The notes under the pieces are model-generated. The model made no database searches. It was not told the DNA's origin and saw only the letters and a list, made by a program, of their open reading frames with translations. Shown here piece after piece: positions 30,280 to 31,950 of a stretch of DNA of 64,000 bases. The first letter of the stretch is position 1, and every line of letters starts with the position of its first letter. Source of the stretch: an uncultured Pelagibacteraceae bacterium (GTDB lineage: Bacteria > Pseudomonadota > Alphaproteobacteria > Pelagibacterales > Pelagibacteraceae); the NCBI GenBank assembly GCA_902591535.1, contig CACJBA010000003.1:22859-86858 (forward strand), in the 5' to 3' direction. The translations under genes and the position numbers were made by a program.

Positions 30280-30807
30280 ATGATACCTCAAAAAGTTAAA
30301 GATCACATAGAAGAATATATTAGCCAAGAAGTTTATGTGCAAATAGCTATAATTAAAGGTAAAGAAAAGGTTTCAACAGAAACAGCTATAAATAAATACT
30401 TTAACACAAATCATTTTAGAGATTTTGCTGAGGGCAAACCATATTTTCATTTTATTGAAGGATTAAGAGATAAATGCCTTGGAAAAATTAAGAATTCTCC
30501 CATGAGAGATAAGGAAACAGAGGATGAGACTATAAAATTATTACAAAATAAATTAAATGATTTATCTGATATTGAGCTTGAAGACACATATTGGGAAATA
30601 GAAACAGGAGAATTTTTTTCAGGAGAGCAAATAAAAGAATTAGAAAAAAATTGTAGTGAATTAATTAAAGAGCTTAATTTTTCAAACAAAAATAAAAAAG
30701 AAGTGCAAAAAACCATCATGAGTTTTTGTGAAAACTATGAAAAGCTGTGTCAAAAAAAATACCCAGAAGCTCCACTTCCACTAGAAATATTAAAATCAGT
30801 AAGTTAG
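30280..30807 (+). CDS. Hypothetical protein
   Basis: 175-aa ORF with typical composition; no motif recognised. Confidence 0.7.
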   Translation: MIPQKVKDHIEEYISQEVYVQIAIIKGKEKVSTETAINKYFNTNHFRDFAEGKPYFHFIEGLRDKCLGKIKNSPMRDKETEDETIKLLQNKLNDLSDIELEDTYWEIETGEFFSGEQIKELEKNCSELIKELNFSNKNKKEVQKTIMSFCENYEKLCQKKYPEAPLPLEILKSVS

Positions 30808-30813
30808 TTTTTA

Positions 30814-30886
30814 AAGGGTTCGCTCTTTAAGCGTATACCTAAAGAGCTCCCTTGTATCGCCTCTTTGGCATTATAATCCCGAGAGG
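30814..30886. other. Two adjacent GC-rich hairpins (terminator and/or sRNA 3' domain)
   Basis: AAGGG..GCTCTTTA (30814-829) pairs with TAAAGAGC.CCCTT (30840-853); CCTCTT.GG (30860-868) pairs with CCGAGAGG (30879-886). Confidence 0.6.
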
Positions 30887-30928
30887 AATTTATTTTTCGT
30901 TATATTTTTGAAATATAAAGCTGTCCAG

Positions 30929-30958
30929 CTAAGTATCAGGTGGTGAAAGTATTAACAT
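30929..30958 (-). CDS. Putative micro-peptide MLILSPPDT
   Basis: Minus strand reads AGAAGGAGGT-TT-ATG TTA ATA CTT TCA CCA CCT GAT ACT TAG; TATAAT at 30988-30983 upstream. Confidence 0.4.
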   Translation of the reverse strand: MLILSPPDT

Positions 30959-31092
30959 AAACCTCCTTCTATAAAAAAGGTAATTATAATTTATACAATT
31001 TCAATTAATTTATTTTAATTTAGAGCAAATATATTTATTGAATACAACCTAATGCTTTTATAGATTCCCGGTAACTTGATTTGTTTTAAAAA

Positions 31093-31950
31093 TTATTTTT
31101 TATTTATTAATTCACTAATAAAATTTTCGCCGTAACCATCGTCAACAGCTTTTTGAAAATAATTTTTATTTAATTCAGCAACTTTTTCAGCTTCAGGAAA
31201 GTCTTTCAACAAGTCTTGAATATAAGTTAAATCTTTTACGGAATTACTTGCTGTAAATTTAAATCCAGTAAAATCACCTTTTAACAGATTATCAAAAACT
31301 CTATTAAGTGCTGCTGAATTTCCAGAACCAAGTTTTGCAACATCAAATACTTTTTTTAAATCTAAACCCATTTCTGTAGCACTTTTAGCTAAATGATTAA
31401 CTAATGCAGCATTTCCAAGGGATAAAAAATTATTTAAAAGTTTTGATTTTGCTCCCATACCCACGGGTCCAAAGTGAAAATATTGTTTACAGAAAAAACT
31501 AAAGTATGGCTCAGCGATTTTAAAATTTTCATCTGATGCCCCGACAATTCCTCCCAATATACCTTCCTCCGCTTGAACGGGTCCTCCCATTACAGGACAT
31601 TCAACATAATTAATATTTTTTACTTTGAATATTTCCTCTGTTTCCATTGATCCGGTTTTATTATGAGTAGTGATATCAATAATTAAAGTTTTTGTATCCA
31701 AAATATTAGATAGTTTTTCAGAAATTATTTTCGCTATGGGAGTATTGGTAACACACATGAACATCGCATCTAAATTTTTACTGTAAAAATCTTCAAAAGA
31801 TTTTACTTCTTCAGCTCCATCGCTAACAATTTTCTCAATTGGTTTCCTATTTTTATTAGCAATGACAAAAAGATTATTTTTATGTTTTAAAATATTTTTA
31901 GCTATCCCATAGCCCATATAACCAACACCAATAAATCCAATATTTTTCAT
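31093..31950 (-). CDS. Beta-hydroxyacid dehydrogenase family (NAD(P)-dependent)
   Basis: IGFIGVGYMG, ECPVMGGP, KLLNN, KDL. Confidence 0.85.
   Translation of the reverse strand: MKNIGFIGVGYMGYGIAKNILKHKNNLFVIANKNRKPIEKIVSDGAEEVKSFEDFYSKNLDAMFMCVTNTPIAKIISEKLSNILDTKTLIIDITTHNKTGSMETEEIFKVKNINYVECPVMGGPVQAEEGILGGIVGASDENFKIAEPYFSFFCKQYFHFGPVGMGAKSKLLNNFLSLGNAALVNHLAKSATEMGLDLKKVFDVAKLGSGNSAALNRVFDNLLKGDFTGFKFTASNSVKDLTYIQDLLKDFPEAEKVAELNKNYFQKAVDDGYGENFISELINKK

What the first reader, a model, noticed from the sequence alone, without database searches (positions are those of the whole stretch)
30808..30995. Free-standing structured RNA encoding a 9-aa 'SPPD' micro-peptide
Seen on the minus strand: TATAAT, then a full AAGGAGGT SD that can pair with upstream CCTTTT, then MLILSPPDT-stop. 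Four inverted repeats follow (30919-930, 30900-918, 30860-886, 30814-853), the last two GC-rich. No downstream gene lies on that strand, as the flanking genes converge. Keeping about 285 bp here is unusual for such a streamlined genome. Known: Pro-Pro motifs slow ribosomes (EF-P). Inference: a dual-function sRNA, a ribosome-stalling sensor, or an orphaned leader.
Basis: partly seen in the sequence, partly recalled or inferred. Interest (0 to 1): 0.65.

Follow-up and report, generated by a model that had tools for sequence, protein, structure and literature searches.

The report
Known SAR11 Pro-Pro mini-gene (sORF-2)
This is a real, conserved mini-gene of the ocean bacterium SAR11, a nine-codon reading frame ending in Pro-Pro-Asp-Thr followed by three RNA hairpins, which was described in 2019 as the 'sORF-2 motif' and whose job is still untested.

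Summary
The element is real but already published. It is the sORF-2 motif of Stav et al. 2019 (PMC6429828): my searches hit their HIMB5 interval, with the same PPDT peptide and flanking genes. The scan also found it before on other DNA (e1-5478837), which gave me the paper.

Confirmed: SD, MLILSPPDT-stop, convergent neighbours, hairpin 30814-853. Homologues occur in 85 of 110 genomes of the genus. PPDT-stop changes only synonymously in the 68 loci found by DNA similarity. Hairpins 1 and 3 covary, and the downstream gene is convergent in 200 of 204 loci.

Corrections: the conserved -10 is TACCTT (30977-982), not TATAAT. The 'CCTTTT' partner is therefore probably promoter DNA, and the SD pairs instead with the ORF's own Pro-Pro codons. 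Two of the four repeats are not conserved. The motif is PPD, not SPPD.

Not in the paper's text: relatives in other SAR11 genera (MSPPET, MSPPEI) and probably the sister family (MNPPA, xTPPTL), so only SD, start codon and Pro-Pro are order-wide. A mirror promoter is conserved upstream. Hfq was not found.

Best guess (0.4): ribosome transit over Pro-Pro sets the fold and lifetime of a trans-acting RNA. Expression, stalling and target are untested.

The parts
30999..31004 (-). Predicted -35 box (TTGAAA) of the sigma70-type promoter
   Evidence: TTG start and 16-17 nt spacer to TAnnnT in 137 of 143 homologues, 18 nt in one more; inference, no start-site data
30977..30982 (-). Predicted -10 box (TACCTT); transcription start predicted near 30970-30972
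   Evidence: Only TA....T is kept across homologues, 7-16 nt upstream of the SD
30961..30968 (-). Shine-Dalgarno AAGGAGGT
   Evidence: GGAGG invariant in alignments A1 and A3
30929..30958 (-). sORF MLILSPPDT-TAG
   Evidence: In-frame ATG and PPDT-stop in all 68 loci found by DNA similarity; synonymous variation, all three stop codons used
30938..30944 (-). ACCACCT: Pro-Pro codons that pair with the element's own SD (6 of 7 positions)
   Evidence: RNAalifold consensus; 35 of 43 diverse homologues keep 6 of 7 pairs; pair probability 0.51 here. The G-C pairs are invariant, so there is no covariation proof
30925..30928 (-). CTG(G) after the stop: 3' arm of an alternative hairpin with the Pro codons that frees the SD
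   Evidence: CTG in 144 of 150 sequences; pair probability 0.37 here; strong in the sister family, absent in genera g12 and g17
30874..30891 (-). Hairpin 1
   Evidence: 5 of 7 pairs have a change on both sides, 94% of cells paired
30859..30869 (-). Hairpin 2 (GCC-loop-GGC)
   Evidence: 81% paired, no two-sided change as aligned (a subgroup is misaligned by two columns). Variant stems are visible in g17 and g12
30814..30853 (-). Hairpin 3 with internal loop; probable 3' end or terminator
   Evidence: 7 of 12 pairs with two-sided changes, 97-99% paired; G-U pairs favour the minus strand; the sister-family counterpart has a U-tract. Not called as a terminator
31038..31066 (+). Mirror-image divergent promoter-like site TTGAAT-17-TAGATT, role unknown
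   Evidence: Exactly 17-nt spacer in 134 of 143 homologues, kept whichever way the upstream gene points
31093..31950 (-). Upstream neighbour, 3-hydroxyisobutyrate/6-phosphogluconate dehydrogenase family; not part of the unit
   Evidence: Pfam PF03446 and PF14833; replaced by other genes in many homologous loci
30280..30807 (+). Convergent downstream neighbour, 175 aa, no Pfam match; not part of the unit

Best explanation
A stand-alone transcript of about 160 nt whose 5' half is a tiny translated ORF and whose 3' half is a structured RNA domain. What matters most is probably the act of translation. Untranslated, the SD folds back on the Pro-Pro codons. A ribosome that initiates, pauses at Pro-Pro-Asp (EF-P and Pro-tRNA dependent) and terminates two codons later holds that fold open and changes the RNA's conformation and lifetime. 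The amount of the three-hairpin 3' domain would then report translation capacity and act in trans, on a protein or on RNA, without Hfq. Shown: conservation, coding signature, covarying hairpins, independence from neighbours. Inferred: promoter, transcription, translation, the two folds. Hypothesis only: pausing, the stability switch and the trans output.
For: Coding signature: (the start codon moves but stays in frame; TAG, TAA and TGA all used; D to E and T to I in distant genera; in the one decayed copy, G720, SD, ATG and first Pro are lost together). The N-terminus is free to vary, and in the probable sister-family homologues only Pro-Pro is kept, which points to the ribosome event more than to the free peptide. 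The codon pair CCA-CCT is 15% of Pro-Pro pairs in this genome (50 of 331), but CCA and CCT fill 144 and 143 of 150 element sequences, and the base before them is nearly always a purine that can pair with the SD's U. The two folds are near-equal in this genome (0.51 and 0.37). PPD is among the strongest EF-P-dependent pauses in E. coli (PMC13602936); efp is present. Hairpin covariation. No co-directional gene to regulate.
Against: No expression, ribosome or target data. The SD/Pro-codon pairs are invariant and so unproven by covariation, and codon constancy may partly reflect shared ancestry. The alternative hairpin is missing in g12 and g17. PPE, PPA and PPT variants are not among the top pauses listed. 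No mRNA target scores above shuffled queries and Hfq was not found in 5 genomes. Strict conservation of D/E-T/I-stop within the family is explained as well by a functional peptide.
Confidence: 0.4

Rival explanations
1. It is a small mRNA and the peptide is the product. The C-terminal P-P-D/E-T/I end is a short ligand for a protein partner. The hairpins only stabilise and terminate the mRNA, and the SD fold limits expression.
For: Amino-acid-level conservation with conservative changes and a fixed stop position across three genera; strong SD; free N-terminus as expected for a C-terminal motif.
Against: Peptides are only 5-10 aa. Probable sister-family homologues end PPA, PPT, PPTL or PPTV, or run on to 19-22 aa. 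Three conserved hairpins are more than termination needs. No PPDT was found inside a plausible long ORF of this genome that the peptide could mimic.
Confidence: 0.25
2. The RNA is a ribosome or translation-factor sink: an abundant short message with a strong SD, slow Pro-Pro and slow termination that parks ribosomes or EF-P under starvation, like the ribosome-bound rreB RNA.
For: Full SD, pause motif two codons before the stop, no downstream gene; rreB/rreR show ribosome-bound small mRNAs of unknown function in alphaproteobacteria.
Against: No 16-17 nt extended SD; the SD is partly self-masked; rreB overexpression did not affect growth; abundance unknown.
Confidence: 0.13
3. It is a base-pairing sRNA that uses CCACCU as an anti-SD seed; the ORF is incidental.
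For: Near-invariant nucleotides at synonymous positions; anti-SD seeds are common in alphaproteobacterial sRNAs (own knowledge).
Against: SD, in-frame start and stop are kept under synonymous change; Hfq not found; no target above background.
Confidence: 0.12
4. The hairpins are only a shared terminator for the convergent gene, or the unit is an orphaned attenuator leader.
For: The convergent gene's stop usually lies within about 30 nt of hairpin 3; the sister-family hairpin looks like a bidirectional terminator.
Against: Promoter, SD and ORF travel with the hairpins through about 16 neighbour families; G-U pairs favour the ORF strand; no lineage has a consistent co-directional downstream gene.
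Confidence: 0.1

Closest known systems
sORF-2 motif (Stav et al. 2019, BMC Microbiol 19:66, PMC6429828; Table S1, supplementary text, Fig. 6a)
   Same: Same element. The published HIMB5 interval 794806-795152 coincides with my hits in G213 (794901-795160; 794986-795158). Same PPDT peptide, hairpins, flanking genes (3-hydroxyisobutyrate dehydrogenase, SMR; unknown, DUF952, cytochrome c) and the same trans-acting sRNA + sORF proposal.
   Different: Nothing at this locus. The paper's text (I could not see Fig. 6a) does not mention the promoter pair, the SD/Pro-codon pairing, the PPET/PPEI variants, the second copies or the sister-family relatives. No experiment is reported in the passages I read.
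HTCC1062 intergenic region 762678-763012 (Meyer et al. 2009, PMC2704228, Table 1)
   Same: Same locus (G120 hit 762680-762865), listed as a long GC-enriched spacer between SAR11_0785 and qacH.
   Different: No motif was assigned there.
rreB / rreR small mRNAs (Hahn et al. 2016, PMC5711450)
   Same: Stand-alone ~165-nt alphaproteobacterial mRNA with a short conserved ORF, SD partly in a hairpin, stability dependent on the start codon, function unknown.
   Different: Defined by a 16-17 nt extended SD and GTG start with 14-18 aa products; here an ordinary 7-8 nt SD, ATG and a Pro-Pro motif.
Proline-rich attenuator leaders such as Salmonella mgtL / mgtP (own knowledge, not checked here)
   Same: Short ORF with Pro codons whose translation speed can switch RNA structure.
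   Different: They control a co-transcribed downstream gene; this unit has none.

Membership tests
sORF-2 motif (Stav 2019) | Homology to the HIMB5 locus NC_018643.1/794806-795152 | tested here: met
   BLAST E 2.5e-15 and CM E 5.5e-26 at the same coordinates of G213, a 1,343,202-bp single contig.
sORF-2 motif (Stav 2019) | Short ORF with conserved PPDT | tested here: met
sORF-2 motif (Stav 2019) | Adjacent RNA hairpins | tested here: met
   The exact drawing in Fig. 6a could not be compared; figures are not held.
sORF-2 motif (Stav 2019) | Diverse flanking genes, often pointing toward the element; SAR11 range | tested here: met
Rfam 15 families | Match at gathering score | tested here: not met
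   No match over the element here or in five homologous loci
rreB / rreR | 16-17 nt complementarity to the 16S 3' end, GTG start | tested here: not met
   Only AAGGAGGT is conserved, ATG start
Leader-peptide attenuator (mgtL-like) | Co-directional regulated gene downstream | tested here: not met
   200 of 204 downstream ORFs are convergent
EF-P-dependent stalling peptide | Ribosome pause at PPX relieved by EF-P | not testable with these tools
   Motif and efp gene present; no kinetic data
Hfq-dependent sRNA | Hfq in the host and a paired mRNA target | tested here: not met
   No Hfq match in 5 genomes, 4 of them 99% complete; no target above shuffles

The most novel reading that the evidence does not exclude
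sORF-2 is an order-wide, Hfq-independent translation sensor. It has attenuator-like logic (SD versus Pro-Pro pairing, EF-P-dependent pause) but no downstream gene, and its output is the level or fold of its own 3' RNA domain acting in trans.
Probability: 0.25. Interest if true: 0.65.

Novelty: already known. Interest (0 to 1): 0.33.

Why it matters
SAR11 keeps almost no non-coding DNA and few regulators, yet this ~300-bp unit is retained in most genomes of the genus searched, in two further genera and probably in the sister family. Whatever it does is likely to matter in very abundant ocean cells. The motif has been catalogued since 2019 without a function. The wider family, the corrected promoter and the SD/Pro-Pro pairing give specific mutations and reporter tests that separate 'peptide' from 'translation event'.

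Tried and rejected
Rfam: nothing over the element. tRNA/tmRNA scan: none. The promoter/terminator scan missed the site at its thresholds.

TATAAT as -10 and CCTTTT as anti-SD: rejected by conservation.

An RNA hairpin from the upstream palindrome (31038-49 with its mirror): the right arm has decayed in this genome and many others, so a pair of mirror promoters fits better. A genome scan for TTGAATACAACC showed no regulon.

Apparent second PPDT copies in eight genomes: chance matches antisense to a glutamine-synthetase-like gene.

Wider range: pattern scans of 400 and 300 alphaproteobacterial genomes (overlapping samples), metagenomes and viral contigs gave no credible relative outside SAR11. 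In-frame hits were at chance level (32 of 97 once SAR11-type hits are removed), and the viral MPPIPPPPDT series looks like the antisense of a conserved phage gene. These scans are pattern-limited, so absence is not shown.

Trans-target scan: best duplex -20.5 versus -19.8 +/- 2.1 kcal/mol for shuffled queries.

No follow-up paper on sORF-2 and no SAR11 start-site or ribosome-profiling data turned up. The iron-limitation paper lists only the neighbour SAR11_0785 (1.5-fold, P 0.051). Three pair probabilities (two for H1, one for H3) used wrong indices and were ignored.

Full report
Verdict. The feature is real, conserved and already described as the sORF-2 motif. Its function is unknown. My session adds corrections to the anatomy and a wider family.

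Observation. The minus strand carries AAGGAGGT (30961-968), the ORF MLILSPPDT-TAG (30929-958) and a folded 3' region between a dehydrogenase gene ending at 31093 and a convergent 175-aa gene ending at 30807. The region folds better than all 200 shuffles (z -3.78). Convergent gaps in this genome have a median of -4 bp. Rfam and ARAGORN find nothing.

Conservation. A DNA search of 300 family genomes found the spacer throughout the genus. All 68 such loci have SD, in-frame ATG and PPDT-stop; one further weak hit (L077) was spurious. These loci were picked without using the peptide pattern. A pattern scan of all GTDB species returned almost only Pelagibacteraceae, Pelagibacter included, among the 80 records listed. 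In 150 distinct sequences (146 SAR11, 4 chance hits) the N-terminus varies in length and sequence, while the core shows CCA/CCG, CCT/CCA, GAT/GAC, ACT/ACA and TAG/TAA (this larger set is pattern-selected). A covariance model of the RNA found it in 85 of 110 genomes of the genus and 4 of 4 of genus g17, where the peptide is MSPPET-TGA. It also found second copies encoding MSLSPPEI in six genomes and one decayed copy that has lost SD, ATG and the first Pro together. A second model added genus g12, 4 of 4, E 1e-14 to 1e-17, MSPPEI.

Sister family. The second model gave weak hits (E 3e-5 to 3e-3, rough calibration) in family f209. They share the layout: SD, start, one codon, Pro-Pro, stop, small hairpins, a terminator-like hairpin with a U-tract and a convergent gene. 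The diagnostic SD-start string occurs in 33 of 60 genomes. Peptides are MNPPA, MNPPT, (TTG)TPPTL, MVPPTV, or a 19-22 aa run-on in one genus. I regard these as probable, not proven, homologues. If they are, only SD, start and Pro-Pro are order-wide. No credible relative was found outside the order.

RNA structure. On 43 diverse sequences, 12 of 22 pairs show two-sided changes and 94.6% of cells pair, above all 500 shuffles and all slid controls (relatedness inflates this). Hairpins 1 (30874-891) and 3 (30814-853) are well supported. Hairpin 2 (30859-869) is supported by conservation and variant stems. G-U pairs and lower energy in 36 of 43 cases favour the ORF strand. RNAalifold also pairs the SD with the Pro-Pro codons: 6 of 7 positions in 35 of 43 sequences, at a nearly fixed distance of 22-26 nt although the ATG moves. 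CCA-CCT makes up 15% of Pro-Pro pairs genome-wide but nearly all elements, so these bases are constrained beyond coding. A second hairpin pairs the same codons with the CTG(G) after the stop. In this genome the two folds have probabilities 0.51 and 0.37.

Promoters. TTG..-16/17/18-TAnnnT precedes the SD in 138 of 143 homologues, whereas TATAAT occurs in 50. A mirror site, TTGAAT-17-TAGATT (31038-066, plus strand), is kept in 134 of 143 whichever way the upstream gene points. In this genome it would fire antisense into the 3' end of the dehydrogenase gene. I cannot explain it.

Context. Downstream ORFs are convergent in 200 of 204 loci and fall into about 16 unrelated families; upstream genes are equally varied. 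The unit is therefore independent of its neighbours and is not a leader. Hfq was not found, EF-P is present. No mRNA start region pairs with the conserved core better than with shuffled queries.

Prior art. A note from this scan pointed to Stav et al. 2019. I checked it: Table S1 lists sORF-2 at HIMB5 794806-795152 with 802 examples and the same neighbours, and the supplement describes the conserved PPDT, the hairpins, the inward-facing flanking genes and a possible trans-acting sRNA plus sORF. My hits in G213 fall on that interval. Meyer et al. 2009 listed the HTCC1062 spacer without assigning a motif. rreB/rreR are analogous but fail the extended-SD test. I found no functional follow-up.

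Mechanism. Shown: a conserved ORF with a coding signature, a covarying 3' domain and independence from neighbours. Inferred: transcription from the TACCTT promoter and translation. My preferred model (0.4) is that ribosome transit over Pro-Pro-Asp, a strong EF-P-dependent pause in E. coli (PMC13602936), switches the SD fold and sets the lifetime of a 3' domain that acts in trans. Rivals are a functional peptide (0.25), a ribosome sink (0.13), a pure anti-SD sRNA (0.12) and a terminator or orphan leader (0.1). None is tested, and the output of the preferred model is unknown.

Scores. Novelty: already known. Interest 0.33, because the motif is published but unexplained and the added anatomy makes it testable. 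Most novel reading: an order-wide, Hfq-independent translation sensor, probability 0.25, interest 0.65.

Noticed in passing
window 31038-31066 (+): Mirror-image promoter-like site conserved with the element in 134 of 143 homologues, even where it would fire antisense into the upstream gene. In several lineages an anti-SD-like ACTTCCCT/ACTCCTCT follows about 12-14 nt after its predicted start, but not in this genome.
   Followed up: partly
L457:1529-1760 and L461-L469 (genus g14): A stand-alone-looking unit with SD, MFMPIPDT-stop (variants MFVPIPDT, MCLPLPYT), a hairpin with a CU-rich loop and a terminator, in 8 of 21 genomes of that genus. Possibly a diverged relative or a separate sORF/sRNA family.
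   Followed up: partly
L249-L254: Second copy of the element (MSLSPPEI) in six genomes of the genus, in variable surroundings near a CBS-domain-like gene.
   Followed up: partly
L248 (G720:C6:25780-25942): Decayed copy: SD, ATG and first Pro lost, hairpins eroded.
   Followed up: partly
L027, L038, L045-L058, about 190-420 nt upstream of the Pro-Pro codons, opposite strand: A conserved ~57-aa hydrophobic ORF (starting MKYISGLINL or similar) often sits divergently next to the element, with its own promoter-like site.
   Followed up: no
L045:2344-2431: TPP riboswitch-like match below the gathering score (39.9 bits, E 7e-5).
   Followed up: no
L453-L456, L470-L479, about 130-60 nt upstream of the SD: In family f209 a conserved CACGTTATCAT stretch and a terminator-like hairpin lie between the upstream gene and the element.
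   Followed up: no
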